From positions 15,465 to 79,464 of IMG/VR virus record IMGVR_UViG_3300017963_000032: 64,000 nucleotides of DNA. One strand, 5' to 3'. A program made the position numbers and the translations under genes. Origin of the DNA: a virus. Taxonomy: Duplodnaviria; Caudoviricetes. Shown piece by piece: positions 28,146-40,342 of the stretch (position 1 is the first letter of the stretch; every line of letters begins with the position of its first letter). The notes beneath the pieces are model-generated. The model made no database searches, had not been told where the DNA came from, and saw only the letters and a program-made list of their open reading frames with translations.

Positions 28146-28207
28146 AAAAACGAAAGATTTATATAGTAGTTATACTTACCTATACGTAAGACGTTAAACG
28201 GAGGCGA
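28146..28207 (+). promoter_or_regulatory. promoter with CTTAC-N6-GTAAG operator (copy 2) and RBS
   Basis: AAAAACGAAAGATTTATATA, CTTAC(28175)-CTATAC-GTAAG(28190), GGAGGCGA at 28200. Confidence 0.7.
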
Positions 28208-28214
28208 AACCAAT

Positions 28215-28937
28215 ATGAAAGTACCAAAATTCCCAAGCATAAAAGGTGTTGAATTGTACCTAGTAGGCGGATGCGTGAGAGATTCCCTAATGGGTCAGAC
28301 TCCAAAAGATTTGGACTATGTTATGATAACAGACAAGTCTTTCGAAGAAGTCGTAAAGCAAATATCAGAGACACCTAACTGCAAAGTATTCCAAGCTAAG
28401 GCAGAGTTCTTAACAATCAGATGCAAGATACAAGACCAGATAGTAGACTTAGTCATGCCAAGAACTGAAGAAGGATACTCAGACCATAGAAGGCCAGACG
28501 AAGTTAAAGGAACAGATTCTCTATTTGAAGATTCCAAGAGAAGAGACTTCACTATAAATTCAATGTACATGGACAAAGAAGGAACCATACTTGATTATCA
28601 TAAAGGAGTGGTTGACCTGAAGAATAAAGTCATCAAGTGCGTAGGCAACCCAAGGGAAAGATTCCAAGAAGATTACCTAAGAATACTCAGAGCTGTCAGG
28701 TTCTCTTGCAGGTTTGGATTCAAAATAGATAAGAGCACACAAAATCATATGATTAAATTATCAGAGAGATTAACTGATGTTGAACAGAACAGAGTCAGGG
28801 AAGAACTAAACAAATCATTGAAGGCAAATCCTAAGTGGACTATGAAATACATCGAAGCATTGAACTTATATAAAACATTATCAGAATTAGGATTACATTT
28901 TGAGCTTAGCTCTAAGGGGGGAGAAAATGATAAGTAA
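28215..28937 (+). CDS. cca: class II tRNA nucleotidyltransferase (CCA-adding enzyme), short form
   Basis: LVGGCVRD...DLD, RRDFTINSM and FQEDYLRILRAVRF (EDxxR). Confidence 0.88.
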   Translation: MKVPKFPSIKGVELYLVGGCVRDSLMGQTPKDLDYVMITDKSFEEVVKQISETPNCKVFQAKAEFLTIRCKIQDQIVDLVMPRTEEGYSDHRRPDEVKGTDSLFEDSKRRDFTINSMYMDKEGTILDYHKGVVDLKNKVIKCVGNPRERFQEDYLRILRAVRFSCRFGFKIDKSTQNHMIKLSERLTDVEQNRVREELNKSLKANPKWTMKYIEALNLYKTLSELGLHFELSSKGGENDK

Positions 28938-29361
28938 AGCTATGATGTTTGCATTCGAGAAACATAGAGGACAACTATGTGACGAAGGAAAACCATACAT
29001 ACTGCACCCATTCAAGGTTGCAGATATAGTAAGGCTAGTCACAGATGATAAAGAAATTATTGCAGCTGCATACCTGCATGATACAATAGAAGATACAGCA
29101 ACAACTTACGACGAATTAGTTGAAGAGTTCAGCAAGAGAGTTGCAGACTTAGTGATGGAAGTATCACATGAAGGACAGAAGGATGAAGTAGGATATTATT
29201 TTCCTAGATTGAAAACACAAGGAGGAATCATGCTCAAGTTCGCAGATAGATTATCCAACCTCTCAAGGATGAGCGCTTGGGATGATGGAAGAAAAGAACA
29301 TTATTTAAGAAGGTCAAGATTTTGGAAAAGGAAACCCGGGGACAGGTGGGAGAAAAAATGA
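28927..29361 (+). CDS. HD-domain hydrolase, RelA/SpoT-hydrolase (Mesh1-like) type
   Basis: H.GQ...PYILHP...AAYLHDTIEDT...KFADRLSNL. Confidence 0.88.
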   Translation: MISKAMMFAFEKHRGQLCDEGKPYILHPFKVADIVRLVTDDKEIIAAAYLHDTIEDTATTYDELVEEFSKRVADLVMEVSHEGQKDEVGYYFPRLKTQGGIMLKFADRLSNLSRMSAWDDGRKEHYLRRSRFWKRKPGDRWEKK

Positions 29362-29549
29362 AGTTTGCAGAAATGATTTATTGGAATCAGCATAGCTATG
29401 GAAAAGCGTTCAGGATAAAGAGAAGCATAATCATTACTTGTGGCATTGCGCTCTGCCTCCTTACGTTTGGTACTAACTGGCTGATTCCTTTTCTGCATAA
29501 GATAATCAAATCAGATATTGTAATAAGATACGGAGGCGAGATACTATGA
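29358..29549 (+). CDS. small membrane protein
   Basis: Hydrophobic segment IIITCGIALCLLTFG. Confidence 0.5.
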   Translation: MKFAEMIYWNQHSYGKAFRIKRSIIITCGIALCLLTFGTNWLIPFLHKIIKSDIVIRYGGEIL

Positions 29550-29764
29550 GTGAACCACAAAAACATAACAAAGAATTCATCGACGAGACAAGGAAAGCTC
29601 TTGAAGAAAACTTGAAGGGAATGTGCAACAAGAAGGCAACAGTGAGAAAACTTATTGACTTAGACAAAAGAAGCAGAGTCATAATCACTAAGGAAGTCAA
29701 GGCACTTAGAACAAAACATAAAGAGATTGAGAAGGAAGTACTAGGTTCAATATTTAAAGATTAA
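29546..29764 (+). CDS. coiled-coil hypothetical protein
   Basis: GGAGGCGA RBS. Confidence 0.55.
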   Translation: MSEPQKHNKEFIDETRKALEENLKGMCNKKATVRKLIDLDKRSRVIITKEVKALRTKHKEIEKEVLGSIFKD

Positions 29765-29765
29765 A

Positions 29766-29780
29766 CCGAAAGCTTTATAT
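29766..29780 (+). promoter_or_regulatory. BRE/TATA promoter for the Y-RNA/TROVE unit
   Basis: CCGAAAGCTTTATAT about 25 nt upstream of element 1. Confidence 0.65.
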
Positions 29781-29805
29781 TTATGTTGTCATTTTCATGT
29801 TGTTC

Positions 29806-29895
29806 GGGTGGCGTAGAATAGGGTTACTTCGCTTGAAACGAAACCAAAATAGGCTGTAAGAGCCTATTGTCTATACCCTGTTTGATTGTACCCCC
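29806..29895 (+). ncRNA. Y-RNA-like element 1
   Basis: GGTGGCGTAG-AATA-GGGTTACTTCG 5' strand pairs with ACCCTGTT...CCCCC. Internal hairpins TTCG-CTTGAAA-CGAA and AATAGGCT/AGCCTATT. Confidence 0.7.
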
Positions 29896-29910
29896 ACAAC
29901 TCATGTTCAT

Positions 29911-30035
29911 GGTGGCGTAGTCGAGAGTTACTTCGACTCGTAATCGAGAGGTCGCAGGTTCGAATCCTGTCATGTGCTTCGGCACGTGTAGCTCAGTTTG
30001 GTAGAGCGCTAACGTACTCTCGACGACTGTTCCCC
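29911..30035 (+). ncRNA. YrlA-like Y RNA, element 2 (permuted tRNA mimic)
   Basis: Closing stem GTCGAGAG/CTCTCGAC. Anticodon-like arm 29932-29948, T arm 29954-29970 (TTCGAAT), 7-bp acceptor stem closed by UUCG 29971-29988, D arm 29991-30007. Confidence 0.85.
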
Positions 30036-30072
30036 TTCATAATCATAAGCACTAAGGTACCAGATTGACAGT

Positions 30073-30138
30073 ATGCGGTGACGTAAACAAGGGATACTTC
30101 GTTCCTAAGAAAAGACCCTCGTTGCTTGTTTCCCGCAT
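30073..30138 (+). ncRNA. Y-RNA-like element 3 (minimal)
   Basis: GGTGACGTAA-ACAA-GGGATACTTCG; termini ATGCGG/CCGCAT pair. Confidence 0.6.
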
Positions 30139-30155
30139 TCATTATCATAGTCATT

Positions 30156-30270
30156 GGGTGGCGTAGTAAAGAGTTACTTCGGTAAAAAACAAACTTCAAA
30201 ATTTGTTCAACTGGTTCAAATCCAGAATCCCTTCGGGGTTTCAAAACGTACTCTTTACGTCCGTTCCCCC
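30156..30270 (+). ncRNA. Y-RNA-like element 4 (T arm plus capped acceptor, no D arm)
   Basis: GGTGGCGTAG-TAAA-GAGTTACTTCG pairs with GTACTCTTTAC. CTGG-TTCAAAT-CCAG T arm and a cUUCGg-capped stem. Confidence 0.72.
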
Positions 30271-30307
30271 GGACAATTTAATAAATAAGAACATGAGGTG
30301 TTTGAAC

Positions 30308-31855
30308 ATGAGTAAATACAACAAGCCTACTAGAGGCAAAGATAAGACTGTAAACCACGAAGGAGATGTGGCTTACAAATTGGATAGCAAAACAGAACTG
30401 TATTCTACAGTCTGCACATCAATGTTGCAGAACAAGTTCTACGAGAAAGAAGATGAAACTCTGAATAGAATCAGAACTCTCATCAAGACTACAGACCCAG
30501 AGTTTGTGGCTAAGCTAGCAGTGTATGCAAGAGAGAAGATGTACCTTAGAAGTATACCTTTAGTCCTTGCAGTTGAGCTGGCAAAGGTCCACAACGAGGA
30601 CAGCATTCTTGGAAGAACTGTTAGCAGAATAGTCCAAAGGGCTGACGAGATAACAGAGATTCTAGCTTACTACAAAGAAGCTAACAAGGATAACTGGGAG
30701 ACTGAAAAGAATTCTGGAAAGACAAAGCATCTTGGAAGATTATCAAAGCAGATAGCTAAAGGTCTGAACTTTTCTTTTAACAAGTTCGACGAGTACCAGT
30801 TTGCTAAGTACAACAGAAAGGGCCAAGTTACTTTGAAGGATGCACTATTCCTAGTTCACCCAAAGGCAAAGAATAAAGAGCAGCAAAAACTGTTTGATAA
30901 GATTGTCAATGGAGAACTAAAGACACCTGAAACTTGGGAAGTTAAGATGAGTGAAGGTGGAAAGGAAGGAGCTGACAAGAAAGAAGTCTGGGAGAAAATG
31001 ATTAGCTCAGGCAAGATGGGTTACATGGCAATGCTGAGAAACCTAAGAAACTTCTTGGAAGCTGACGTGAGCCAGAAGCACATGGCTGATGTAGCGCAGA
31101 CTCTTGCAGACCCTGAGAAAGTTAGAAAGAGCAAGCAGTTACCATTCAGATTCTTGAGCGCTTACAAAGAGCTGAAAGGAAACAAGAGCTCTAAGGCTAC
31201 AATGATTTTGAACGCTCTGGAAGAAGGAGTGATTACAAGCATTGAGAACTTGAAGGGCTATGATTATAACACAACTGTTTGCGTAGCTTGTGATGTTTCA
31301 GGAAGTATGCAGCATTCAATCAGTGACAGAAGCAAGGTCGAACTTTACGACATTGGATTGCTACTTGGTATGCTATTGCAGTCAAGATGCAAGAGTGTAA
31401 TCACTGGTATATTCGGAGACACTTGGAAGATTAAAGCACTTCCTCAAAAGAGCGTCTTGCAGAATGTGATGGACTTGCATAACATCGAAGGAGAAGTTGG
31501 TTACTCAACTAACGGGTACAAAGTAATCCAAGACTTAATCACTAGAAAGGAGAAAGTGGATAAGATTATGATATTCACTGACTGTCAGATGTGGAACAGT
31601 TACTCTGGAAGTAGAGGAAGCTTTGCTACTTGTTGGTCTGAATACAAGAAGATTCATCCAGAAGCAAAACTCTACTTGTTTGATTTGTCAGGTTACGGAA
31701 ACACTCCTGTATCTGTTAAAGGAGATGGAGTTTACTTGATTGCAGGATGGAGCGAGAAAGTCTTTGATATGCTAGCTGCAATAGATAAGGGCAGTAATGC
31801 AGTGAAGGAGATTGAAAGCATCGACTTGTTCAAGAAACCAAGCAAGAAGAAATAG
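30308..31855 (+). CDS. rsr: Ro60/TROVE-domain RNA-binding protein with vWA domain
   Basis: TVNHEGDVAY, EFVAKLAVYARE..YLR, FDEYQFAKY, ETWE, MGYMAMLRNLRN, SKQLPFRF, CDVSGSM (MIDAS), FTDCQ. GAGGTG RBS before ATG 30308. Confidence 0.95.
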   Translation: MSKYNKPTRGKDKTVNHEGDVAYKLDSKTELYSTVCTSMLQNKFYEKEDETLNRIRTLIKTTDPEFVAKLAVYAREKMYLRSIPLVLAVELAKVHNEDSILGRTVSRIVQRADEITEILAYYKEANKDNWETEKNSGKTKHLGRLSKQIAKGLNFSFNKFDEYQFAKYNRKGQVTLKDALFLVHPKAKNKEQQKLFDKIVNGELKTPETWEVKMSEGGKEGADKKEVWEKMISSGKMGYMAMLRNLRNFLEADVSQKHMADVAQTLADPEKVRKSKQLPFRFLSAYKELKGNKSSKATMILNALEEGVITSIENLKGYDYNTTVCVACDVSGSMQHSISDRSKVELYDIGLLLGMLLQSRCKSVITGIFGDTWKIKALPQKSVLQNVMDLHNIEGEVGYSTNGYKVIQDLITRKEKVDKIMIFTDCQMWNSYSGSRGSFATCWSEYKKIHPEAKLYLFDLSGYGNTPVSVKGDGVYLIAGWSEKVFDMLAAIDKGSNAVKEIESIDLFKKPSKKK

Positions 31856-31868
31856 AAAGCTTTAAATA
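31855..31868 (+). promoter_or_regulatory. BRE/TATA promoter for tRNA array 1
   Basis: GAAAGCTTTAAATA, near-identical to the 29766 promoter. Confidence 0.55.
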
Positions 31869-32056
31869 TTTCTTTATTATTCTTTTTTTGTTTTATTTGA
31901 AACTAGGTGATTAAAGCAATATGTTATACAACACGACAACCGGAATGTGTACATCAGACTTACTTAATAGTCTGGCGTCTCATTGATTCGGGCCTGTCGT
32001 TGTTAAACTTTTTCTGCGCTTTGTTGTTTGATGACGACAAGGCAAAGCTATATCAT

Positions 32057-32141
32057 ACCGAGGTCGGATAGCGGTCAATTCCAAAGGGCTCATGACCCTT
32101 CGCTCATCAGAGCTGCGCAGGTTCAATTCCTGCTCTCGGTA
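32057..32141 (+). tRNA. tRNA-iMet(CAT) with long variable arm
   Basis: A1:U72, three G-C pairs in the anticodon stem (AAGGG/CCCTT), extra GCTC-ATCA-GAGC arm. Confidence 0.85.
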
Positions 32142-32149
32142 TCTTTTAT

Positions 32150-32221
32150 GCCTTCAGAGTGCGTGAGGTAGCACACCTGACTGTTAATCAGGAAGTCCAA
32201 GTTCGACTCTTGGTGAGGGCG
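32150..32221 (+). tRNA. tRNA-Asn(GTT)
   Basis: Cloverleaf; CCTGA-CTGTTAA-TCAGG. Confidence 0.92.
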
Positions 32222-32226
32222 TTCAT

Positions 32227-32364
32227 AGGCGGGTGCCAGAGCCCGGTTGAATGGGCTGGACTTAGGAGCCAAATGGCTTGGTCAAAGGGCCACACTCAAA
32301 ACCGATAGCTTAGAAATCCAGTGCGGTAGCGCTAAACACGTGGGTTCGAATCCCACCCCGCCTA
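32227..32364 (+). tRNA. tRNA-Leu(TAG) with 37/38 intron (32267-32315)
   Basis: CTGGA/TCCAG stem, long V arm, A73; BHB with one U.U pair. Confidence 0.82.
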
Positions 32365-32370
32365 TCAAAT

Positions 32371-32500
32371 GCCGAGGTTGAGCAGCTGGTAGCTCGCTGG
32401 TCTGCTGATTAACTCAGCCCAGAGTGGAGTTCCGGGTTGTTAGCCCAGAGTTGAAAACCAGTTCCCTTGCGGTCTGCGGGTTCGAGTCCCGTCCTCGGCG
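32371..32500 (+). tRNA. tRNA-Ser(TGA) with non-canonical 32/33 intron (32403-32450)
   Basis: Strict BHB: central helix CTGG(32397-400)/CCAG(32445-448) with bulges TCT and AGT. Spliced loop CTTGAAA; G73; extended V region. Confidence 0.8.
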
Positions 32501-32504
32501 TTAC

Positions 32505-32577
32505 GGGCAGGTAGCTCTAATGGTAGAGCGGTTGGCTTGCATCCAACAGGCTTCGGGTTCGAATCCCGACTTGTCCA
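32505..32577 (+). tRNA. tRNA-Ala(TGC)
   Basis: Cloverleaf; G3.U70. Confidence 0.95.
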
Positions 32578-32580
32578 TAA

Positions 32581-32626
32581 GCTCTCCAGCAAGGATACTG
32601 TCAAGTGAGAGTTAAAAAGTCCTTGC
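32581..32626 (+). ncRNA. pseudoknotted RNA element with HDV-like topology
   Basis: P1 GCTCTC/GAGAGT, P2 GCAAGGA/TCCTTGC, P3 ACT/AGT. Confidence 0.45.
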
Positions 32627-32630
32627 GTAT

Positions 32631-32703
32631 GCTGGCGTGGCCTAATTGGTATGGCAGTTGCCTTGTAAGCAGCCGAATGGGGGTTCGAGTCCCTCCGCCA
32701 GCT
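32631..32703 (+). tRNA. tRNA-Thr(TGT)
   Basis: Cloverleaf; U73. Confidence 0.92.
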
Positions 32704-32706
32704 TTC

Positions 32707-32779
32707 GGCACTATGGACAAGCTGGTAAGTCGTCAGGTTGCAACCCTGAAGAACGAGGGTTCAAGCCCCTCTAGTGCCT
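32707..32779 (+). tRNA. tRNA-Cys(GCA)
   Basis: Cloverleaf; TCAGG-TTGCAAC-CCTGA; U73. Confidence 0.92.
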
Positions 32780-32810
32780 TAATTCTACCATTTATAAACA
32801 AATCTCTTAC

Positions 32811-32865
32811 AAAAACGAAAGATTTATATATAAGCTATGCTTACTAATATGTAAGATGGAGGCGA
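32811..32865 (+). promoter_or_regulatory. promoter with CTTAC-N6-GTAAG operator (copy 3) and RBS
   Basis: AAAAACGAAAGATTTATATA, CTTAC(32840)-TAATAT-GTAAG(32855), GGAGGCGA at 32858. Confidence 0.7.
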
Positions 32866-32870
32866 GCAAT

Positions 32871-33023
32871 ATGAATGACGAACCATGGGCAAAAGGATAT
32901 GTCAGCCCAACAGTATGCGCTGACGGAGAAGACTCTCATGAATGGGAGAATACAGTTATGGTAGAAAATGGCTGTATAGAAATACCAGTAAGGCACTGCA
33001 AGAAGTGCGGATTTTATATGTAA
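32871..33023 (+). CDS. 50-aa Cys/His microprotein
   Basis: Read manually: MNDEPW...C...HEW...HCKKCGFYM*. Confidence 0.55.
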   Translation: MNDEPWAKGYVSPTVCADGEDSHEWENTVMVENGCIEIPVRHCKKCGFYM

Positions 33024-33040
33024 AAATGGAGGCGAGAAAT

Positions 33041-33565
33041 ATGAGAAAAACATTATATAAGGAGACGAAAACAACTGGCTGCGAGATGGAAGACGGCAGC
33101 GACACAAGAAAGACTGAATCAACTTTGATTTTGGTCAATGAATCGGAAGAGGAATCCTACCAAGACCACGTGGCTGATGAAGCAGGAAGTCAAGACTACA
33201 GTTACCAGTTCAATAACAAAGCAATCATAACTCTTGAAGATGGAGATTGGGATAAGGTTGCAGACCTTCTTGAAGCTGAAGGCAAGATAGCCAAAGCAGA
33301 GAGTGAAGAGTATAATGGATGGACTAACAGAGAGACATGGGCAGTAAAGCTGCACTGGGACAACAACCAAGGAGATTACGAGTCTCTGATTGATAGAACA
33401 AGACAGATGAAAAAACAAGGTAAGTCACCTTATAACTTAGCATCAGAATTAAAAGAGTATGCTGAAGAAGCATTCAACATGATGTTTGAAGGCCAGAAAC
33501 TTCCAGAGCAAACAGCACACTTCATCAATGATGTGGGCAGCCTTTGGAGAGTTAATTGGAAATAG
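33041..33565 (+). CDS. hypothetical protein
   Basis: GGAGGCGA RBS before ATG 33041; YNGWTNRETW motif. Confidence 0.6.
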   Translation: MRKTLYKETKTTGCEMEDGSDTRKTESTLILVNESEEESYQDHVADEAGSQDYSYQFNNKAIITLEDGDWDKVADLLEAEGKIAKAESEEYNGWTNRETWAVKLHWDNNQGDYESLIDRTRQMKKQGKSPYNLASELKEYAEEAFNMMFEGQKLPEQTAHFINDVGSLWRVNWK

Positions 33566-33597
33566 ATTGCTGAAGCTTACTGGTCAGAGGTGGAACT

Positions 33598-33939
33598 ATG
33601 AAAAAGAAAGAGCGGAAGGTTTACGAGGACGAGGCAAACAACAAGATATTTTTTGACATCAGGAAGTACATGAAGAACTTAACCAACAGCGTGATAGACC
33701 AAGATGCAGAAGCTTCATACTATATCCAAAGAGAGATAAGCATCCATAGGCTTTGGGATTATCATGAAGGAGAGGTTCTAGAAATCTTGAAGAAAAATCC
33801 AGAAGTCACAGAGATATTCAAGGTTGAGAAGATAAAAGATAGGGGCCATCTCACAACTTATGTGCAGTTCAGAGGAGAAGCGGAAGTCAGCACTGGATAT
33901 GACAGGATATTCATCAAGAAGATGGAAGTGGTAAAATGA
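33598..33939 (+). CDS. hypothetical protein
   Basis: GAGGTGG RBS. Confidence 0.55.
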   Translation: MKKKERKVYEDEANNKIFFDIRKYMKNLTNSVIDQDAEASYYIQREISIHRLWDYHEGEVLEILKKNPEVTEIFKVEKIKDRGHLTTYVQFRGEAEVSTGYDRIFIKKMEVVK

Positions 33940-34832
33940 ATACTTGGAAGACCTTCAATAAGTATGTTGATTTCCACAAGAAAGGATTGGACTTGGGCTT
34001 AGAGCCTTACACTATTGGAGAGCCTGAAGAGACATTCATAGAGAAATTAGATAACACCTTCGCACACGGCAAAGTCTTTGATATAAATGAAGATGTTAAG
34101 GATTTGCTTTTGAGAACTAAAGGGACAAAGGAGATTGACAAAGTACCTTTTGAGAGTATCTTTATTGATACAGACTTTGATGTTTCAGAGTTCAAGGAGA
34201 AGCAAGACAATGATGACATAACAAGCGTTGCAGGATTGCTCGTATCTGTGGCCAACAAGGTAGAGATAATAGAGAACAAAGAATATGTGAAGAACTCAAC
34301 TCTAGACTTGAAGACATTAAGGGGTGCTGAAGGATTCAAGATATACTGGCTCGGGCTAGACAAAGGAAAGATAGGTTATTGCTTTCACACAATCAACATA
34401 GTCAACAAGAACAATCTAGACATGGAGTTTGAGATTAGCAGCAAGACACCTAAGATAAGAAAGTTCCTTATTAATTTTGTCAGCAACTTCTTGAACTTAC
34501 TTAACAATCCTCAACCAGACATAGTAATCACAGAAAGAAAAGCCAACGAAGCAAAGAACAAAAGATTGATTAGACATGGACAGATTCCAATGCCAACTAA
34601 AAGTGTTGTGCTCATGATTGGAAAATTAAAGATATACCTTGACCAGCTCCGAAGTAATGGGTACATGTCTTACTCTCATAAGTTCTGGGTCAGAGGCCAT
34701 TGGAGAACTCTTAGAGATGAGGACCGATGGGGAGAAAAGGTAGGAACAAAATTATGGATTCACCCGTTTGTGAAGGGAAGCGGAATCCTAATTGACAAGA
34801 AATACAATGTTACCAAGGAGGCGGAAGCATGA
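33936..34832 (+). CDS. hypothetical protein
   Basis: 298 aa; C-terminal HKFWVRGHWR..WIHPFVKG motif of a type seen in phage proteins. Confidence 0.65.
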   Translation: MNTWKTFNKYVDFHKKGLDLGLEPYTIGEPEETFIEKLDNTFAHGKVFDINEDVKDLLLRTKGTKEIDKVPFESIFIDTDFDVSEFKEKQDNDDITSVAGLLVSVANKVEIIENKEYVKNSTLDLKTLRGAEGFKIYWLGLDKGKIGYCFHTINIVNKNNLDMEFEISSKTPKIRKFLINFVSNFLNLLNNPQPDIVITERKANEAKNKRLIRHGQIPMPTKSVVLMIGKLKIYLDQLRSNGYMSYSHKFWVRGHWRTLRDEDRWGEKVGTKLWIHPFVKGSGILIDKKYNVTKEAEA

Positions 34833-35095: not shown

Positions 35096-35096
35096 T

Positions 35097-35981
35097 ATGG
35101 CAAAAGAAAAATTCAGAGAGAAACTACATCTCTCACCAAAGAACAAGAAACAACTTGAAGTTATCAATGAAATTATAGATGAGTACGCAGCAGAAGGTTA
35201 CAAGCTAACATTAAGGCAGCTTTATTACCAGTTAGTGTCCAGAGACATAATCCCTAACAAACAATCAGAGTATGCAAAACTTAGCAACTTACTTGTTAAA
35301 GGAAGGATGGCTGGTGTTGTTGACTGGGAAGCTATCGAAGACAGAATCAGAGTACCATTTATTCCTTACTGGGTACATGGAGTTAAGGATGCAATAGATG
35401 ACACAATCAGTCAGTACAGATTAGACAGGCAAGACGAACAAGAAGTTTACATAGAACTCTGGGTAGAGAAGGACGCATTGTCAGGAGTGCTGAAGAGAAT
35501 CACATCACACTATCATATCAATTTGATGGTTAACAGAGGGTACAGTTCTTGCACTGCAATGCATGATGCATACAAAAGATTCAGAACACAAGCTATAGCC
35601 AATGAGAAGAAGATTGTAATACTGTATCTTGGAGACCACGACCCAAGCGGTCTGGATATGATTAGAGATATAAGGGACAGGTTATTTGAGTTCGGAGTTG
35701 ATGTAACAGTCAAACCAATAGGACTTACTATGGCTCAGATTAAGCAATACAATCCACCACCAAACCCTGCAAAGATTACAGACCCAAGGGCAAAGGATTA
35801 TATCGAAGAGCACGGAAACACTTCATGGGAAGTTGACGCTCTGAATCCTAAAGTCTTGCACCAGTTAGTAAGAACAAATGTCGAAGGCATGATTGACATG
35901 GGCTTGTTCGAAGAGATGCTAGAGAAAGAGAAAGAGCACAAGAAAGAACTGGAGAGACTGCGTGAGGAAAGCAAAAAATGA
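35097..35981 (+). CDS. Topo VI-A/Spo11-like winged-helix plus TOPRIM protein
   Basis: TLRQLYYQLV, LWVEKDAL, RGYSS, YLGDHDPSG and WEVDAL. Confidence 0.78.
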   Translation: MAKEKFREKLHLSPKNKKQLEVINEIIDEYAAEGYKLTLRQLYYQLVSRDIIPNKQSEYAKLSNLLVKGRMAGVVDWEAIEDRIRVPFIPYWVHGVKDAIDDTISQYRLDRQDEQEVYIELWVEKDALSGVLKRITSHYHINLMVNRGYSSCTAMHDAYKRFRTQAIANEKKIVILYLGDHDPSGLDMIRDIRDRLFEFGVDVTVKPIGLTMAQIKQYNPPPNPAKITDPRAKDYIEEHGNTSWEVDALNPKVLHQLVRTNVEGMIDMGLFEEMLEKEKEHKKELERLREESKK

Positions 35982-36763
35982 AGGAGAAGATTAAAGGACT
36001 CTGCAAGCAGATAGAGAAAGAAAAAGGAATCAAGATACTATTTGCTGTAGAGAACGGAAGCAGAGCTTGGGGCATGGAGAGTGAAGACTCAGACTATGAC
36101 ATCAGGTTCGTCTATCACAGGGAAGTCAAGGACTATCTTTGCCTGAACCCAAGTGATGAAGTAATCAAAGCAAGCTTCGATAAGGAAGGAAACAAAGCTC
36201 CAGCTGAAGGATGTTTCTTTGATATTGTAGGATTCGATTTGTTCAAGTTCGCAAGGATGTTGAGCAGCTCTAACCCTCAAGTCATTGAATGGCTTTGCAC
36301 GGACATTGTTTACTTAGGAAAGCAGAACAAAGTGTTCCAAGAGTATGCAGAGAAGTGCTTCAAGCAAATCAGTTTGTACTATCATTACAAGAGCATGTGC
36401 AAGCAGAACTATTTGAAGTATTTAAAGTCAGGCAATCTAGTTACATACAAGAAGTATCTATATGCAATGCGAGGATTAATCAACGCAAGGTATGTAGCTA
36501 ACTTCAAAGTATTGCCGCCTATAAACTTCATTCAAACATTGGAGACTCTTGATAAATTACTTCCTTTGTATGTTGTTGAAAGGTTGAAACAGATTGTTGA
36601 GCTCAAGAAAGAAGGAAAAGAAAAGGACATCATAGAGAACGAGACCAAGATAGATAATTACATTGAGGAGTTCTTGAAGGATGACAGCGAAGCTCCAAAA
36701 GAGAAGAAGCTTTCAACACAGACAGAGCTCAATCAAGAAGTACAAAAAATATTGGGGGTGTAA
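35978..36763 (+). CDS. Pol-beta superfamily nucleotidyltransferase (YcgL/NrdC.11-like)
   Basis: ENGSRAWGM.S.DSDYDIRFVY, SSNPQVIEWL and KKYLYAMR. Confidence 0.85.
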   Translation: MKEKIKGLCKQIEKEKGIKILFAVENGSRAWGMESEDSDYDIRFVYHREVKDYLCLNPSDEVIKASFDKEGNKAPAEGCFFDIVGFDLFKFARMLSSSNPQVIEWLCTDIVYLGKQNKVFQEYAEKCFKQISLYYHYKSMCKQNYLKYLKSGNLVTYKKYLYAMRGLINARYVANFKVLPPINFIQTLETLDKLLPLYVVERLKQIVELKKEGKEKDIIENETKIDNYIEEFLKDDSEAPKEKKLSTQTELNQEVQKILGV

Positions 36764-36765
36764 GG

Positions 36766-37137
36766 ATGGTTGAAATATTGTTTAAACAATTCGTGATAGT
36801 GCCTAAGAGACCTAAGATGTCTCCCGGTAAGATTGCAAGCCAAGTAGCTCATGCAACATTCATGGCACTTGAGAATCAGAAGGAACTCAATAAGCATCAA
36901 ACAGATATTATAGACACTTGGAAACATAACGGGATGTGTGTCATAGTATTGCAATGCAAGAGCTCATCACAGTTGATGGGGATTGCTAAGTACTTGGACC
37001 AATGGAAGATTCCAAACCATCTTTACATTGATGAAGGGATGACAGAGGTTGAGATGGGAACTCCTACAGCTCTTGCAACAGGCGTACTTCCTTTAGATAA
37101 ACATTGGATGCTTGGTCAGTTGGAGTTGTTAAAATGA
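36766..37137 (+). CDS. pth2: peptidyl-tRNA hydrolase type 2
   Basis: KMSPGKIASQVAHA and IDEGMTEV..GTPT. Confidence 0.9.
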   Translation: MVEILFKQFVIVPKRPKMSPGKIASQVAHATFMALENQKELNKHQTDIIDTWKHNGMCVIVLQCKSSSQLMGIAKYLDQWKIPNHLYIDEGMTEVEMGTPTALATGVLPLDKHWMLGQLELLK

Positions 37138-37403
37138 TACTGGCAATAGACCCTGATGGGATAATCAGATTAATGTCGGACTGGAGTTTAAGATACAATA
37201 TAGGGTCTGACTGGACTATCATTAAACGATTTGAGATGCCAAAGATGGGCAGGAAAACTCACACTACAAAGCTTGATGAGTACATCCAAGTCCAAAGAGA
37301 AACCAAAGAGAAACTAGAGAAAGAGATTAAAGAGCGAGAGAAGAACATAAAGTTACTCGAAGCATTGAAACAGGAGGCAGAAAAACATGCAAAGAAAAAG
37401 TAG
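37134..37403 (+). CDS. coiled-coil hypothetical protein
   Basis: Coupled ORF. Confidence 0.5.
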   Translation: MILAIDPDGIIRLMSDWSLRYNIGSDWTIIKRFEMPKMGRKTHTTKLDEYIQVQRETKEKLEKEIKEREKNIKLLEALKQEAEKHAKKK

Positions 37404-37563
37404 AATATTCACAAACGCTGAGTTAGAAGTGATAGCTCAGAAAGAGGCAGGCAAGTACAAAGACACAAATGGCTTGTTTGCAGGTAGGATAAAACCTAAA
37501 GTCAAGGAGTTGCTCAAAGAATGGGTACCAAAAAAGAAAAAGCTGGAAAAGTTAATCAAGTAA
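37387..37563 (+). CDS. 58-aa basic protein
   Basis: Read manually: MQRKSRIFTNAELE...KELLKEW. Confidence 0.45.
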   Translation: MQRKSRIFTNAELEVIAQKEAGKYKDTNGLFAGRIKPKVKELLKEWVPKKKKLEKLIK

Positions 37564-37910
37564 TCTGGATGGCTCCCCTTGTTATTTTATCTTTATTCGG
37601 AGTGATTTTCCTAGGATTATTGATTCATGAAGCAACACACGTAGCTCAGAGCAAGGAGCCTATAAGTATATGTTATGATTTTCAACAAGCTACAATGGCT
37701 CATGTTTGGCATGATACTACAGCTTGGGCTTTAGAAAATAATCATACAAGAGCTGCAACTCTGGCCGAGTTTCATGACTGGCAGATATACACAGAGAAGT
37801 GGGCGTATAATATTCAAGGATTTTTATTGGCTATATTGCCATTCTTACTAGGAATAAGCACGACAATGTGCTGGAGGAAATACAATGAGCGGAAAAGAAA
37901 AGAAGATTGA
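37521..37910 (+). CDS. membrane protein with HExxH motif (M50-like)
   Basis: Two TM segments and LLIHEATH. True start probably near 37569. Confidence 0.55.
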   Translation: MGTKKEKAGKVNQVIWMAPLVILSLFGVIFLGLLIHEATHVAQSKEPISICYDFQQATMAHVWHDTTAWALENNHTRAATLAEFHDWQIYTEKWAYNIQGFLLAILPFLLGISTTMCWRKYNERKRKED

Positions 37911-38236
37911 GAAGGTCACAGTCAGGGAATTGATTCATATGCTACTTGATTACCCTAATGACTGGGAAGTTATTATAAGGAGCAAAGGAGGCAACAGGTT
38001 ATCCGGGGCCACAATCAATGTAAAAGAGCCAGAAGGATTAGCTTGTTTGTTTGGATAAAATGAGAGCGAGATTCCATAAGCAAAGTTGGAGGAGTCCAGC
38101 ATACAAGTATGAATTGTTTAAGATATTATTCCATAGACATTCTTACATCAGTCCAGATAAGATAGCTTATTCATTCGAGCTTGTGATATTTGGATATGAA
38201 TTGCACTTAGAGATACTCAGACCAAAACCAAAATAA

Positions 38237-38252
38237 CCAAAACATTTAAATA
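38237..38252 (+). promoter_or_regulatory. BRE/TATA promoter for tRNA array 2
   Basis: CCAAAACATTTAAATA. Confidence 0.55.
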
Positions 38253-38431
38253 TATGTAAGAGTTTCTCGCAAATTATGAGTACCGTAATTTGGAAAAGGG
38301 ATAGAGAACAGGGCATCGGGATAGTCGATGTGCCGTTTCAATATCATCAGTGATTCCAGAGCTGCGGTCAAGACCTTCTAAAATTTTATTCAACCCCTCG
38401 AATCGTTTTGTATCGCAGTTCTAATTTATAT

Positions 38432-38503
38432 GCCCCTATGGTGTAGCAGCAATCACACTCGATTTTCGGTCGAGTAACTTGGGTGCGAGTCCCAATGGGG
38501 GTG
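38432..38503 (+). tRNA. tRNA-Glu(TTC)
   Basis: CTCGA-TTTTCGG-TCGAG; atypical T loop TGCGAGT. Confidence 0.85.
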
Positions 38504-38507
38504 TTTC

Positions 38508-38581
38508 GGGCATGTGGTCTAATCTGGTAGGTCACTTGGCTTACATCCAAGAAGGTGCAGGTTCAAATCCTGTCATGCCCA
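38508..38581 (+). tRNA. tRNA-Val(TAC)
   Basis: Cloverleaf. Confidence 0.92.
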
Positions 38582-38582
38582 T

Positions 38583-38688
38583 CCAGCGCTGAGCGGAGAA
38601 GCAGGTTCGAGTCCTGTCAGCTTCAGATGAGTGCGCACATAAAATATCTGAAGATGTGGTGTATTGGGAGAGCATACCGCTTTATTGG
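38583..38688 (+). ncRNA. circularly permuted tRNA-like RNA
   Basis: Order is AGCGG, T arm (38601-38617), acceptor 3' strand, linker, acceptor 5' strand (38650-56), D arm, CCGCT (38677-81). Confidence 0.7.
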
Positions 38689-38758
38689 GGTATTGGTGTA
38701 ATGTGTAGCATCCGTGCCTTGGACGCACGAGACAGAGGTTCGATTCCTCTATGCCCCA
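38687..38758 (+). tRNA. tRNA-Pro(TGG)
   Basis: CGTGC-CTTGGAC-GCACG; G1-C72; A73. Confidence 0.82.
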
Positions 38759-38763
38759 TAAAT

Positions 38764-38834
38764 GCCTGTGTGATGTAATGGCAACATACATGCCTGTCCA
38801 GCATGAACCTCGGGTTCGATTCCCGACACGGGCG
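38764..38834 (+). tRNA. tRNA-Asp(GTC)
   Basis: Cloverleaf; G73. Confidence 0.92.
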
Positions 38835-38837
38835 TAC

Positions 38838-38948
38838 GGTGCTGTGGCGCAACTGGTGAGCGCATCCGGCTGATAAGGAGCGTGCAGAGCTTATATGCAC
38901 AGTTGCGAAGAGTCTGGAAGGCTAAGGGTTCAAGTCCCTTCAGCACCA
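38838..38948 (+). tRNA. tRNA-Ile(GAT) with anticodon-loop intron (about 38876-38912)
   Basis: TCCGG-CTGATA...CTGGA; relaxed BHB with tandem G.A pairs. Confidence 0.8.
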
Positions 38949-38953
38949 TTCAT

Positions 38954-39061
38954 AGGCGTGTAGTCTAACGGACAGGACTCTTGGCTTCTATGCAGTGCAT
39001 GGCTAGGAAGAAGTCATGTCGAAGAGACCAAGGAATCTGGGTTCAAATCCCGGCACGCCTA
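38954..39061 (+). tRNA. tRNA-Arg(TCT) with 37/38 intron (38991-39026)
   Basis: BHB central helix CTTC/GAAG. Confidence 0.88.
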
Positions 39062-39065
39062 TTAC

Positions 39066-39148
39066 GAGCAGGTCGCATAATCTGGTATTGCACTGGACTT
39101 TTAATCCAGAGCCATTAGGCATCGAGGGTTCAAATCCCTTCCTGCTCA
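39066..39148 (+). tRNA. tRNA-Lys(TTT) with long variable arm
   Basis: CTGGA-CTTTTAA-TCCAG followed by a GCC-ATTA-GGC arm. Confidence 0.82.
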
Positions 39149-39152
39149 TCAC

Positions 39153-39227
39153 AGCCCCGTAGTGTAGATAGGACAATCATCTTAGACTTTGAATCTAGGG
39201 ACGGCGGTTCGAATCCGCCCGGGGCTA
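39153..39227 (+). tRNA. tRNA-Gln(TTG)
   Basis: A1:U72 (archaeal type); cloverleaf. Confidence 0.9.
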
Positions 39228-39231
39228 TCAT

Positions 39232-39312
39232 GGTGCAGTTGGTGTAAGGGTTATCATAGCACGGAAGACTGTGACTCTTCAGGACCGGGTTCGAGTCCCG
39301 GATTGCACCCCA
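39232..39312 (+). tRNA. tRNA-His(GTG)
   Basis: Encoded G-1:C73 and CCA; enlarged D loop. Confidence 0.85.
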
Positions 39313-39313
39313 T

Positions 39314-39385
39314 GGGATTATAGCTTAACCGGGAGAGCACCTCGCTGAAGACGAGAAGGTCCGAGTTCAAATCTCGGTAATCCCA
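39314..39385 (+). tRNA. tRNA-Phe(GAA)
   Basis: Cloverleaf; CTGAAGA loop. Confidence 0.9.
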
Positions 39386-39387
39386 TT

Positions 39388-39451
39388 AAAAGAAGAGAAG
39401 AAGAAAAGGGTTCCCCCCGGACCCCCCTCCCAAAAGAAGAAGAGAAGAAAA
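39388..39451. repeat. perfect 20-nt homopurine mirror repeat around a C-tract spacer
   Basis: AAAAGAAGAGAAGAAGAAAA (39388-407) and its exact reverse (39432-451). Confidence 0.85.
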
Positions 39452-39949
39452 ATGGACTACGCAATTTTCAGAAAGACCCTGTCAAAGGAGGAGTTCTTTG
39501 GCAAGTGGACTAGGGATGATTTTGCTAGCGCAAGCGATGCAGACAAAGAGAAGGGATATAATGATTATGTTGTGAAGAGCATTGTATTTCAGAGGGATGG
39601 TTTTAAATGTCAGAATGTGAACTGCGAGCATCCACACAGTGGATTAACTCTTCACCATATAAAACATCAAAGGAACGGGGGAAAGACAACAGTAAGGAAC
39701 TGTATAACAATTTGTTTAAGATGTCATGAGTTGTTTAACAAGAAGGCCATAGGCCTAACGTTCGCTGACAGACCAGAGCTGCCAGCTCACGTAAGGAACA
39801 GGACTTTTAAGATTAACAAGGACAACAGTATTAATTGGAAACAAGTTAGAGCGGAAGGAAAGAAGATAAGAAAACAGAACAAAGAGCATCATGGTTATAG
39901 GATTAGCTGGGAGATGATGCTTAAACTAATCAGATTTTTGAAACTTTAA
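39452..39949 (+). CDS. HNH endonuclease
   Basis: VFQRDGFKCQ..C...LTLHHI...GG.T..RNCITICLRCH. Confidence 0.9.
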   Translation: MDYAIFRKTLSKEEFFGKWTRDDFASASDADKEKGYNDYVVKSIVFQRDGFKCQNVNCEHPHSGLTLHHIKHQRNGGKTTVRNCITICLRCHELFNKKAIGLTFADRPELPAHVRNRTFKINKDNSINWKQVRAEGKKIRKQNKEHHGYRISWEMMLKLIRFLKL

Positions 39950-39950
39950 T

Positions 39951-40023
39951 GCGTCCATATCCTAATCTGGCAGGGAACTCGGCTTCCACCCGAGGTATGC
40001 GGGTTCAAATCCCGCTGGGCGCA
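39951..40023 (+). tRNA. tRNA-Gly(TCC)
   Basis: Cloverleaf. Confidence 0.92.
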
Positions 40024-40027
40024 TCAA

Positions 40028-40098
40028 CTCCTCTTGGTGTAAGGGCTGCATAACTGGCTGTAACCCAGCAGGACTGAGTTCGACTCTCAGAGAGGAGA
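40028..40098 (+). tRNA. tRNA-Tyr(GTA), archaeal type
   Basis: C1:G72, short variable loop, A73. Confidence 0.9.
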
Positions 40099-40146
40099 TA
40101 CATTTAAATATGAGTGTACATTACTTGGTCTACACTCAATATTAAA

Positions 40147-40278
40147 GGGAGCGTAGTGTAACGGCACCACGTTGGACTCCAGATTCTAGGGTAGAGTTTA
40201 ACACCCTCCGCCCAAAGAATACCCCTCGGATAACAAAGGAGAAACCCAAAGATGCTGGTTCGAATCCGGCCGTTCCCA
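40147..40278 (+). tRNA. tRNA-Trp(CCA) with 37/38 intron (40183-40243)
   Basis: BHB central helix CTCC/GGAG; A31.C39 mismatch. Confidence 0.85.
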
Positions 40279-40342
40279 TTCTTGAATATCAATTAAATTA
40301 CAATCAAAACTCACATGATATTAGGGTTAACTAACGTAACAA

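What the first reader, a model, noticed from the sequence alone, without database searches (positions are those of the whole stretch)
28146..40278. A 12-kb tRNA supply/repair and translation-rescue island
Seen together: class II CCA-adding enzyme, HD (Mesh1-like) hydrolase, Ro60 with Y RNAs, 20 tRNAs, a Pol-beta NTase, Pth2, a Topo VI-A-like TOPRIM protein and an HNH nuclease. Known: CCA enzymes repair tRNA 3' ends, Pth2 recycles peptidyl-tRNA, Ro/Y RNAs are linked to tRNA damage responses with RtcB, and HD hydrolases remove alarmones. Inference: this is a coherent counter-defence system against host tRNA-cleaving or translation-arrest immunity. No RtcB or splicing endonuclease is in the window, so the host enzymes would be borrowed.
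Basis: inference. Interest (0 to 1): 0.85.

Follow-up and report, generated by a model that had tools for sequence, protein, structure and literature searches.

The report
Archaeal virus tRNA supply-and-repair gene cluster
A complete 79-kb tailed archaeal virus packs 20 tRNA genes (one per amino acid, five with introns) together with enzymes that finish, repair or recycle tRNAs and a Ro60/Y-RNA particle; this is a real, compact variant of an RNA-repair toolkit already described for jumbo phages and halovirus HGTV-1, and its claimed anti-immunity role is still untested.

Summary
Window 28147-40278 carries a head-and-neck-only class II CCA-type nucleotidyltransferase, a RelA/SpoT-type small alarmone hydrolase, four Y-RNA-like genes with Ro60, and 20 tRNA genes. 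The tRNAs cover one amino acid each, and five carry introns at position 37/38. The cluster also holds RlaP, Pth2, a Topo VI-A-like protein and an HNH endonuclease. The virus is archaeal; a DPANN host is only a lead.

The Topo VI-A-like protein and the HNH are DNA-side or mobile genes, not tRNA parts. One unnamed ORF folds like the anti-CRISPR AcrVA2. Among 50 other Ro60-encoding viral records, RlaP occurs in 10, CCA enzyme in 10, Pth2 in 7, RtcB in 7 and HD_4 in 2. None combines RlaP, CCA and Pth2, so this is a variable toolkit, not a fixed cassette.

HGTV-1 has Ro60-HNH-x-RlaP, RtcB, CCA enzyme and intron-bearing tRNAs. Iyer et al. 2021 already proposed this counter-defence reading for jumbo phages. 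This virus has no RNA ligase or splicing endonuclease.

Two facts give an ordinary supply-and-maturation reading equal footing. Nineteen of the 20 tRNA genes lack an encoded CCA, and the anticodons match the virus's preferred codons. Another first-stage note in this scan (e1-5650424, unchecked) reports a similar toolkit in a different genome.

The parts
28147..28165 (+). BRE/TATA promoter AAAACGAAAGATTTATATA for the CCA-SAH operon
   Evidence: The motif AAASNTTTAWAT occurs 7 times on the + strand against 0.52 expected, and 6 of the 7 lie in 28153-40356. The same 19-mer recurs at 32812.
28215..28937 (+). Class II CCA-type tRNA nucleotidyltransferase, head and neck only (240 aa)
   Evidence: Short 237-246 aa open frames holding the same head domain occur in G438 and G449.
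28927..29361 (+). RelA/SpoT-type small alarmone hydrolase (SAH, Mesh1-like); the ORF is open from TTG 28900 and overlaps the CCA gene
29322..29764 (+). Two small ORFs (75 and 72 aa) of unknown function
   Evidence: No family matches.
29805..30275 (+). Four Y-RNA-like units behind the promoter at 29763; units 2 and 4 hold tRNA-like parts
30293..31855 (+). Ro60 (TROVE + vWA); the frame is open from 30203
32057..32779 (+). tRNA block A: Met, Asn, Leu-UAG (49-nt intron), Ser-GCU (48-nt intron), Ala, Thr, Cys; promoter at 31850
32812..32830 (+). Second copy of the 19-mer promoter, heading the operon 32942-38236
32942..33939 (+). DUF7249 protein (207 aa) and a 113-aa ORF, function unknown
33936..34832 (+). 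AcrVA2-like protein (298 aa), a candidate anti-defence gene
   Evidence: The Atlas gives PF26125 as a lead only. The AF2 model has pLDDT 80, and its only Foldseek hits at E <= 0.001 are AcrVA2 chains 7ci2_A and 7ci1_A, with 7ci1_B next at 1.1e-3.
35097..35981 (+). Stand-alone Topo VI-A/Spo11-like protein (winged helix with an RQLYYQ stretch, plus Toprim); a DNA enzyme, not a tRNA part
35978..36763 (+). RlaP Pol-beta nucleotidyltransferase
36766..37137 (+). Peptidyl-tRNA hydrolase Pth2
   Evidence: It is 65% identical to the Pth2 of G001.
37104..38236 (+). Five small ORFs (57-129 aa) of unknown function
38432..39385 (+). tRNA block B: Glu, Val, Pro, Asp, Ile-GAU (37-nt intron), Arg-UCU (36-nt intron), Lys, Gln, His, Phe; promoter at 38240; a tRNA-fragment-like element at 38582-38686
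39452..39949 (+). HNH endonuclease inside the tRNA array, probably a mobile homing-type gene
   Evidence: HGTV-1 has HNH and LAGLIDADG ORFs between its tRNAs.
39951..40278 (+). tRNA-Gly, tRNA-Tyr and tRNA-Trp-CCA (61-nt intron)

Best explanation
The region is a virus-encoded toolkit for supplying and maintaining tRNAs. It sits in a complete 79-kb tailed archaeal virus and keeps viral translation going.

Shown by tool results:
- Twenty tRNA genes, one per amino acid, with anticodons that match the virus's favoured A/U-ending codons.
- Nineteen of these genes lack an encoded CCA.
- A minimal CCA-type enzyme whose gene overlaps that of a Mesh1-like hydrolase.
- A Ro60 gene preceded by four Y-like RNAs.
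- RlaP and Pth2 coupled in one operon.
- Near-identical promoters in front of the two protein operons.

Inferred from what these families do elsewhere:
- The CCA enzyme completes or rebuilds tRNA 3' ends.
- The hydrolase removes 3' (pyro)phosphate from tRNA or degrades alarmones.
- RlaP puts back one or two nucleotides on damaged RNA 3' ends.
- Pth2 frees tRNA from dropped-off peptidyl-tRNA.
- Ro60-Y particles handle misfolded or damaged RNAs.
- The five intron-bearing tRNAs need the host's splicing endonuclease and RtcB, because the virus has neither, and host RtcB would also have to seal any cut tRNA.

The set is a loosely linked toolkit whose make-up varies between viruses. It is not one fixed system. 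Whether the damage it handles comes from host immunity or from the infection itself is not determined.
For: Gene identities.

tRNA set and introns. In the canonical bulge-helix-bulge register, 16 of 20 positions pair against 7.5 expected (P about 1e-4).

CCA ends: 19 of 20 tRNA genes have no encoded CCA.

Codon match: AGA 63%, GGA 58%, ACA 54%, GCA 52%.

Promoters: the motif is enriched, and an identical 19-mer precedes the CCA-SAH operon and the DUF7249-to-Pth2 operon.

Co-occurrence:
- HGTV-1 has RtcB, an intron-bearing tRNA, Ro60-HNH-x-RlaP, a tRNA array and a CCA enzyme.
- G001 has CCA-HD next to Pth2 (65% identical), a second Pth2, and Ro60 (55% identical) with a Y-like RNA within 19 kb.
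- At least 3 tRNAs lie within 10 kb of 22 of 80 viral Ro60 genes.
- RlaP occurs in 10, CCA in 10 and Pth2 in 7 of 50 Ro60 records. In the phage database RlaP matches 87 and Pth2 matches 8 of 50,697 records.

Literature: PMC7824862 sections 3.4.8-3.4.9; PMC8651126; RlaP biochemistry 10.64898/2025.12.29.696909; SAH acting on pyrophosphorylated tRNA 10.1101/2021.04.30.441581.
Against: - No activity, expression or splicing data exist for this virus.
- The toolkit is interrupted by about 3 kb of genes with no tRNA link: DUF7249, an AcrVA2-like protein and a Topo VI-A-like protein.
- There is no RNA ligase or end-healing enzyme, although RlaP usually travels with ligases (PMC7824862).
- The CCA-type enzyme lacks body and tail, so its tRNA specificity is unproven.
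- The tRNA set does not cover UUR-Leu (47%), UCN-Ser (54%) or AUA (48% of Ile).
- The same promoter class also heads an unrelated operon at 20625.
Confidence: 0.6

Rival explanations
1. Dedicated counter-defence. The enzymes exist mainly to undo immune damage to tRNAs: anticodon nucleases, CCA trimming, or toxSAS-type 3' pyrophosphorylation. The viral tRNAs replace those that are destroyed.
For: - RlaP prefers damaged RNA ends (10.64898/2025.12.29.696909).
- SAH enzymes reverse toxSAS pyrophosphorylation of tRNA CCA ends (10.1101/2021.04.30.441581), and toxSAS CapRel is an antiphage system (PMC9712102).
- The RelA_SpoT synthetase domain occurs in 150 of 301 genomes of the candidate host phylum, including some 320-390 aa SAS-sized open frames.
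- An AcrVA2-like gene sits in the same operon as RlaP and Pth2.
- The same reading has been published for jumbo phages (PMC7824862).
Against: - No tRNA-targeting effector has been identified in any host, and the host itself is unknown.
- Without a ligase the virus cannot by itself reseal a cut anticodon loop.
- Most of the RSH hits in the candidate hosts are long 620-700 aa housekeeping-type proteins.
- The CCA enzyme and the tRNAs have an ordinary explanation.
Confidence: 0.3
2. Pure supply and maturation. The tRNAs adapt the translating pool to viral codon usage, and the CCA enzyme simply matures viral tRNAs that lack CCA. Ro60/Y, Pth2, RlaP and SAH are general housekeeping extras unrelated to damage.
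For: Anticodons match the top viral codons. Nineteen of 20 genes lack CCA. tRNA arrays lie beside Ro60 in many viruses that carry none of the repair enzymes.
Against: RlaP's only known activity is on damaged RNA ends. The enrichment of RlaP, Pth2 and RtcB among Ro60 viruses is hard to explain by codon supply alone.
Confidence: 0.2
3. No joint function. The region is an accretion zone for horizontally acquired accessory genes that happen to include RNA-related ones.
For: - The Topo VI-A-like gene is 57% identical to Flavobacterium phage genes, and its family is spread across thousands of metagenomic clusters.
- An HNH sits inside the tRNA array.
- Unrelated genes are interleaved.
- No other record has the same combination.
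Against: The RNA-related families co-occur far above background. G001 keeps CCA and Pth2 adjacent and Ro60 nearby. G420 keeps RlaP next to CCA. HGTV-1 keeps Ro60 next to RlaP.
Confidence: 0.12

Closest known systems
Halovirus HGTV-1 tRNA and RNA-metabolism gene set (NC_021328; PMC8651126)
   Same: It is an archaeal tailed virus and has the nearest TerL in the phage database (30.5% identity). It carries tRNAs for all 20 amino acids, some with introns, and HNH or LAGLIDADG ORFs among the tRNAs. It has Ro60 (34% identical) followed by HNH, one ORF and RlaP (25% identical), plus a class II CCA enzyme.
   Different: HGTV-1 is 144 kb with 36 tRNAs. It carries its own RtcB, and the paper reports two Rnl2 ligases and a LysRS. 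It has a full-length 445-aa CCA enzyme far from Ro60 and no Pth2. An HD_4 hydrolase was not found in it. The present virus is 79 kb with exactly one tRNA per amino acid, no ligase, a 240-aa CCA enzyme fused in an operon with an SAH, and Pth2.
Jumbo-phage RNA-repair toolkit as described by Iyer et al. 2021 (PMC7824862, sections 3.4.8-3.4.9)
   Same: The same families are listed there and given the same counter-defence reading: ROT/TROVE with a tRNA-like partner RNA, RlaP, CCA-adding enzyme, PTH2 and an HD alarmone phosphodiesterase.
   Different: Those are bacterial viruses of 200 kb or more, in which RlaP tracks RNA ligases. Here the virus is archaeal and mid-sized, has no ligase, and carries archaeal-type tRNA introns.
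Bacterial rsr-yrlBA-rtcBA RNA-repair operon of Salmonella (PMC7790460, PMC4201824)
   Same: Ro60 is encoded next to tRNA-like Y RNAs and linked to the tRNA damage response.
   Different: The bacterial operon is cellular, regulated by RtcR and built around the RtcB and RtcA enzymes, all of which are missing here. The Rfam YrlA model scores below its gathering threshold.
IMG/VR contig IMGVR_UViG_3300035698_013589 (G001)
   Same: It has the closest shared genes: Pth2 65%, Ro60 55% and CCA 30% identical, with a Y-like RNA beside Ro60.
   Different: Its CCA enzyme is 450 aa with an internal generic HD domain and a C-terminal tRNA_NucTran2_2 domain, and it is directly followed by Pth2. RlaP was not found. 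No tRNA array lies in the 56 kb examined. The record is only about 70% complete.

Membership tests
Class II CCA-adding enzyme | Pol-beta head with GGxVRD / DxD, RRD and the EDxxR templating motif | tested here: met
   PolyA_pol 7e-32. The alignment to PDB 6ibp shows GGCVRD, DLD, RRDFTIN and EDYLR.
Class II CCA-adding enzyme | Body and tail domains that hold the tRNA elbow (full length about 390-450 aa) | tested here: not met
   The protein is only 240 aa and the matches stop at about residue 225. All NCBIfam scores fall below their cut-offs. Similar short open frames occur in G438 and G449.
Class II CCA-adding enzyme | Adds C-C-A rather than poly(A) or A only | not testable with these tools
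   The CCA models score higher than PcnB (184 vs 134 bits), but the activity needs an assay.
RelA/SpoT-homologue small alarmone hydrolase (Mesh1-like) | HD_4 domain with His, HD and ED motifs, and no synthetase domain | tested here: met
   HD_4 1.6e-15. The sequence holds HP, LHDTIEDT and ADRLSN. PDB hits are Rel hydrolase domains, MESH1, a (p)ppApp hydrolase and an SAH. It is not related to the HD domain of G001's CCA enzyme.
Ro60 / Y RNA ribonucleoprotein | TROVE ring plus vWA domain | tested here: met
   TROVE 2.4e-38; vWA_Ro60 6e-6, just under its cut-off.
Ro60 / Y RNA ribonucleoprotein | Adjacent Y RNA with a conserved Ro-binding stem and, for YrlA, a tRNA-like module | tested here: inconclusive
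   Four units with a shared 5' strand and matching 3' strands. YrlA scores 43.8 bits against a gathering score of 69. Binding is untested.
RlaP (PF10127) | Full-length match to the RlaP model | tested here: met
   3.2e-52 over positions 1-244 of 249.
RlaP (PF10127) | Association with an RNA ligase gene | tested here: not met
   No RtcB or Rnl2-type ligase in the complete genome. The Rnl1 search was uninformative.
Pth2 | PTH2 domain over the whole protein | tested here: met
   1.2e-22. NF003314 scores 73 bits, below its 126-bit cut-off.
Topo VI subunit A / Spo11 (stand-alone A-subunit-like form) | Winged-helix 5Y-CAP with catalytic Tyr, plus a Toprim domain with acidic residues | tested here: met
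   Foldseek matches 9o8p_A at 8e-4 and 1d3y across about 290-310 columns. R40, Y43, Y44, E120, E124, D180 and D182 are invariant in 18 homologues. The Tyr motif assignment rests on my own knowledge of Spo11.
AcrVA2-like (PF26125) | Fold match to AcrVA2 | tested here: met
   The only Foldseek hits at E <= 0.001 are 7ci2_A (3.2e-4) and 7ci1_A (5.5e-4), with 7ci1_B next at 1.1e-3. The Atlas family lead agrees. Pfam gave no hit in the local copy, and anti-CRISPR activity is untested.
Archaeal bulge-helix-bulge tRNA introns | Intron at 37/38 with a 4-bp helix between two 3-nt bulges | tested here: inconclusive
   Arg and Trp pair 4 of 4, Ser and Leu 3 of 4, Ile 2 of 4. Overall 16 of 20 pair against 7.5 expected. 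Splicing has not been observed.
Phage RNA-repair counter-defence toolkit (PMC7824862) | RNA ligase plus end-healing enzymes at the core | tested here: not met
   No kinase or phosphatase was found among the ORFs scanned.
Phage RNA-repair counter-defence toolkit (PMC7824862) | Protection against tRNA-targeting effectors | not testable with these tools
   This needs infection or heterologous rescue assays.

The most novel reading that the evidence does not exclude
A virus of genome-reduced DPANN archaea runs most of a tRNA life cycle on its own. It brings one tRNA per amino acid. The overlapping CCA-SAH gene pair acts as a two-step tRNA 3'-end repair unit: it removes a toxSAS-type pyrophosphate, then rebuilds CCA. 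RlaP, Pth2 and Ro60-Y particles salvage damaged or stalled tRNAs, with sealing left to the host's RtcB, which is assumed here to be constitutive because archaea need it for tRNA splicing. The intron-bearing precursors would stay immune to anticodon nucleases until they are spliced.
Probability: 0.15. Interest if true: 0.8.

Novelty: new variant of a known kind. Interest (0 to 1): 0.55.

Why it matters
Archaeal viruses with translation-related gene sets are few. HGTV-1 has been the reference case. This genome packs Ro60 with Y RNAs, RlaP, Pth2, a CCA-type enzyme, an alarmone-type hydrolase and a one-per-amino-acid tRNA set into 12 kb of a complete 79-kb virus that has no RNA ligase. Of the 50 other Ro60-encoding viral records compared here, none combines RlaP, CCA enzyme and Pth2.

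It therefore offers small, clonable parts for testing three things:
- whether viral RNA-repair genes really counter tRNA-directed immunity;
- whether a body-less CCA enzyme works on tRNA;
- whether Mesh1-like hydrolases act on tRNA ends in archaeal systems.

If the DPANN host lead holds, it would also show how viruses cope with hosts that have minimal genomes.

Tried and rejected
- Single-sequence scans of IMG/VR with TerL and RlaP found no relatives. Only the Ro60 alignment reached further.
- The genome search draws no 'relatives' for a virus record.
- Host search: the nearest cellular PCNA homologues (33-38% identity) are in Woesearchaeota and Nanoarchaeota MAGs. No spacer-like match to window 40300-60299 appeared in 401 genomes of that phylum. 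tRNA similarity was weak. TerL had only two distant homologues, at 27-31% identity. The host stays a lead.
- I considered that the HD ORF is a split-off HD domain of an E. coli-type CCA enzyme, as fused in G001, and rejected it. It is HD_4/SpoT-like and shows no similarity to G001's HD region.
- I first assumed that archaea lack alarmone chemistry. One search corrected this: RelA_SpoT domains occur in half of the sampled genomes of the candidate host phylum.
- Sequence search of the PDB gave nothing for the 294-aa and 298-aa proteins. Fold searches resolved both.
- The Rnl1 family search rang nowhere, not even in the control genomes, so it is uninformative.
- One Pfam call failed because of wrong coordinates and was repeated.

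Full report
**Setting.** The window is bases 15465-79464 of a complete 79,464-bp IMG/VR virus record with 123-bp direct terminal repeats. Nearly all sizeable ORFs lie on the + strand.

The virus is archaeal, on four lines of evidence:
- A BRE/TATA-like motif (AAASNTTTAWAT) occurs seven times, all on the + strand, against 0.52 expected.
- The sliding clamp is PCNA-type, and its nearest cellular homologues are archaeal.
- The closest terminase in the phage database is that of halovirus HGTV-1, at 30.5% identity.
- Five tRNA genes carry anticodon-loop introns that fit the archaeal bulge-helix-bulge register.

The PCNA homologues (33-38% identity) are almost all from Woesearchaeota or Nanoarchaeota MAGs of 0.9-1.6 Mb. 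This makes a DPANN host a lead, but spacer, tRNA and terminase searches did not confirm it.

Upstream of the island the window holds a large glycosylation cluster, a papain-like protease and a Cas4-like nuclease. The terminase and structural genes follow downstream.

- The gene at 28215-28937 has the catalytic head and neck of class II CCA-adding enzymes, with GGCVRD, DLD, RRDFTIN and EDYLR. Its best PDB match is a CCA-adding enzyme at 2.4e-35. At 240 aa it lacks body and tail. Open frames of 237-246 aa holding the same head domain occur in two other Ro60 viruses, so the short form may not be peculiar to this contig.
- Overlapping its stop codon is a 144-153 aa RelA/SpoT-type hydrolase with HD and ED motifs. 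It matches Rel hydrolase domains, MESH1, a (p)ppApp hydrolase and small alarmone hydrolases.
- After a second promoter come four Y-RNA-like units at 29805-30275. Each opens with GG(U/C)G(G/A)CGUA and is closed by a matching 3' strand, and units 2 and 4 hold tRNA-like arms. Rfam's YrlA model hits unit 2 at 43.8 bits, below its gathering score.
- Ro60 follows (TROVE 2.4e-38). Its true start is probably the ATG at 30293 or 30308.
- RlaP (3.2e-52), Pth2 (1.2e-22) and an HNH endonuclease were confirmed by Pfam.

**The tRNAs.** Rfam and ARAGORN together find 19 tRNAs. The twentieth, Leu-UAG at 32227-32364, was read by hand and folds as a class II tRNA once a 49-nt intron is removed.

The set is exactly one tRNA per amino acid. 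Five genes carry introns of 36-61 nt after position 37: Leu, Ser, Ile, Arg and Trp.

In the canonical register, nucleotides 32-35 pair with the four intron bases that precede a 3-nt bulge. Pairing is 4 of 4 for Arg and Trp, 3 of 4 for Ser and Leu, and 2 of 4 for Ile. That is 16 of 20 against 7.5 expected, P about 1e-4.

Nineteen of the 20 genes lack an encoded CCA.

The anticodons match the virus's preferred codons: AGA 63% of Arg, GGA 58%, ACA 54%, GCA 52%. UUR-Leu, UCN-Ser and AUA are not covered. The set therefore supplements the host pool and does not replace it.

The complete genome holds no RtcB, no splicing endonuclease and no Rnl2-type ligase. Splicing, and any resealing of cut tRNAs, must use host enzymes.

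**Genes that do not fit the reading.**

The 294-aa 'Topo VI-A-like' call is correct at fold level. The AF2 model has pLDDT 84, and its best PDB matches are Topo VI A, the MksG nuclease and JetD. The homologues share invariant R40, Y43, Y44, E120, E124, D180 and D182. The family is very large and highly conserved, with more than 8000 clusters, many 70-80% identical. In bacteriophages it sits among ThyX, RNR, aGPT-Pplase and similar nucleotide or DNA-modification genes. It is a DNA enzyme and not part of a tRNA system, although it is translationally coupled to RlaP.

The HNH resembles the endonuclease ORFs that lie between tRNA genes in HGTV-1.

One unnamed ORF (33936-34832) folds like the anti-CRISPR AcrVA2. 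AcrVA2 chains are the only significant PDB hits.

**Is it a coherent unit?** The region consists of at least six promoter-led units. The CCA-SAH operon and the DUF7249-to-Pth2 operon start with the same 19-mer and a similar leader. The same promoter class also heads an unrelated operon at 20625, so co-regulation is only weak evidence.

Comparisons with other viruses give a mixed answer.

- HGTV-1 has RtcB, an intron-bearing tRNA, Ro60-HNH-x-RlaP and then a long tRNA array. Its CCA enzyme lies elsewhere and it has no Pth2.
- Contig G001 has a 450-aa CCA-HD enzyme directly followed by Pth2 (65% identical to ours). A second Pth2, Ro60 (55% identical) and a Y-like RNA lie within 19 kb. RlaP was not found.
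- Around 80 viral Ro60 genes, 22 loci have three or more tRNAs within 10 kb. CCA, RlaP and Pth2 each appear only twice and RtcB four times.
- Over the whole records of 50 Ro60 viruses, RlaP is in 10, CCA in 10, Pth2 in 7, RtcB in 7 and HD_4 in 2. No record has RlaP, CCA and Pth2 together, and none has more than three of the five families above their cut-offs.
- The background in the phage database is 87 records for RlaP, 112 for Ro60 and 8 for Pth2, out of 50,697.

The families are therefore strongly enriched together, but they assort freely. Genome size and shared ancestry inflate the enrichment. This is a toolkit, not a cassette.

**Mechanism.** What each part does is inferred from its family.

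- RlaP adds one or two nucleotides to damaged RNA 3' ends and restores aminoacylation of over-damaged tRNA (preprint 10.64898/2025.12.29.696909).
- MESH1-type hydrolases remove the pyrophosphate that toxSAS enzymes put on the tRNA CCA end (10.1101/2021.04.30.441581). The toxSAS CapRel is an antiphage system (PMC9712102).
- I expected alarmone chemistry to be irrelevant in archaea. However, the RelA_SpoT synthetase domain occurs in 150 of 301 sampled genomes of the candidate host phylum, mostly as long 620-700 aa proteins with some SAS-sized open frames. The viral hydrolase may therefore target alarmones, modified tRNA ends, or both.
- The CCA enzyme has an obvious routine substrate in the 19 CCA-less viral tRNAs.

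The data do not separate 'repair of immune damage' from 'supply, maturation and quality control during a heavy translational load'. I give 0.6 to the general maintenance-toolkit reading. Within it, I put the dedicated counter-defence reading at about 0.3.

**Comparison with what is known.** The same families and the same counter-defence idea were set out for jumbo phages by Iyer et al. 2021 (PMC7824862). HGTV-1's tRNA genes, RtcB, Rnl2 ligases and CCA enzyme are described in PMC8651126.

What is different here:
- the compact combination in a 79-kb archaeal virus;
- no ligase of any kind;
- a body-less CCA enzyme paired with an SAH;
- Pth2;
- four Y-like RNAs;
- one tRNA per amino acid, with five intron-bearing genes.

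Another first-stage note of this scan reports a CCA/PTH2/Ro60/RlaP toolkit in a different genome (e1-5650424, not checked by me). Several bacterial Ro60-Y-RtcB-RlaP islands have also been followed up in the scan.

**Verdict.** This is a new variant of a known kind, of moderate interest.

Noticed in passing
window 38582-38686: Between tRNA-Val and tRNA-Pro lies a 105-nt element with a T-arm-like hairpin (GCAGGTTCGAGTCCTGT) and acceptor-like pairing. Another first-stage note reads it as a circularly permuted tRNA. ARAGORN and Rfam do not call it.
   Followed up: no
window 32057-32141 and 39066-39148: tRNA-Met(CAU) and tRNA-Lys(UUU) carry hairpin extra arms of about 16 and 14 nt. This is unusual for class I tRNAs. 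The hairpins do not look like bulge-helix-bulge introns.
   Followed up: partly
window 38875-38911 and 38990-39025: The Ile and Arg introns end in the same CGAAGAG. In Arg this pairs with the anticodon loop, but in Ile it does not. This suggests the Ile intron was copied from the Arg one, or that the motif is recognised in its own right.
   Followed up: partly
window 20625, 28147, 32812, 40339: A near-identical promoter (AAAACGAAAGATTTATATA) recurs four times. Three of the copies are followed by a conserved leader with a CTTAC...GTAAG inverted repeat, a possible shared control element.
   Followed up: partly
window 31868-32055 and 38252-38430: About 190-nt ORF-free leaders lie between the promoters and the first tRNA of each block. 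The first holds a long inverted repeat (ACACGACAACCGG...CCTGTCGTTGT). They may encode further small RNAs.
   Followed up: no
window 35097-35981: The stand-alone Topo VI-A/Spo11-like family is very abundant: more than 8000 clusters, many 70-80% identical, including contigs binned as CPR bacteria. The Atlas also shows a form fused to a ParB_N domain.
   Followed up: partly
window 33936-34832: An AcrVA2-like fold in an archaeal virus. The homologues keep a conserved C-terminal FWVRGH.R...W motif.
   Followed up: partly
window 1-25000: A large glycan-biosynthesis cluster: several GT1, GT2 and GT4 glycosyltransferases, an epimerase/dehydratase, phosphomannomutase, UDP-glucose dehydrogenase, a cytidylyltransferase and methyltransferases, plus a papain-like protease.
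   Followed up: partly
G000:C1:6800-15400 (outside the window): About 8.6 kb of the viral genome has only short ORFs (63-125 aa), mostly on the minus strand.
   Followed up: no
genomes of the phylum of G003 (e.g. L181, L182): Half of 301 sampled Woesearchaeota/Nanoarchaeota-type genomes encode RelA_SpoT synthetase domains. Most are long 620-700 aa RSH proteins, which I did not expect for archaea.
   Followed up: no
L011:11620-18150 (G001): CCA-HD enzyme, Pth2, a calcineurin-like phosphoesterase and a Band_7/SPFH protein lie in a row in a related virus. This may be another repair neighbourhood.
   Followed up: partly
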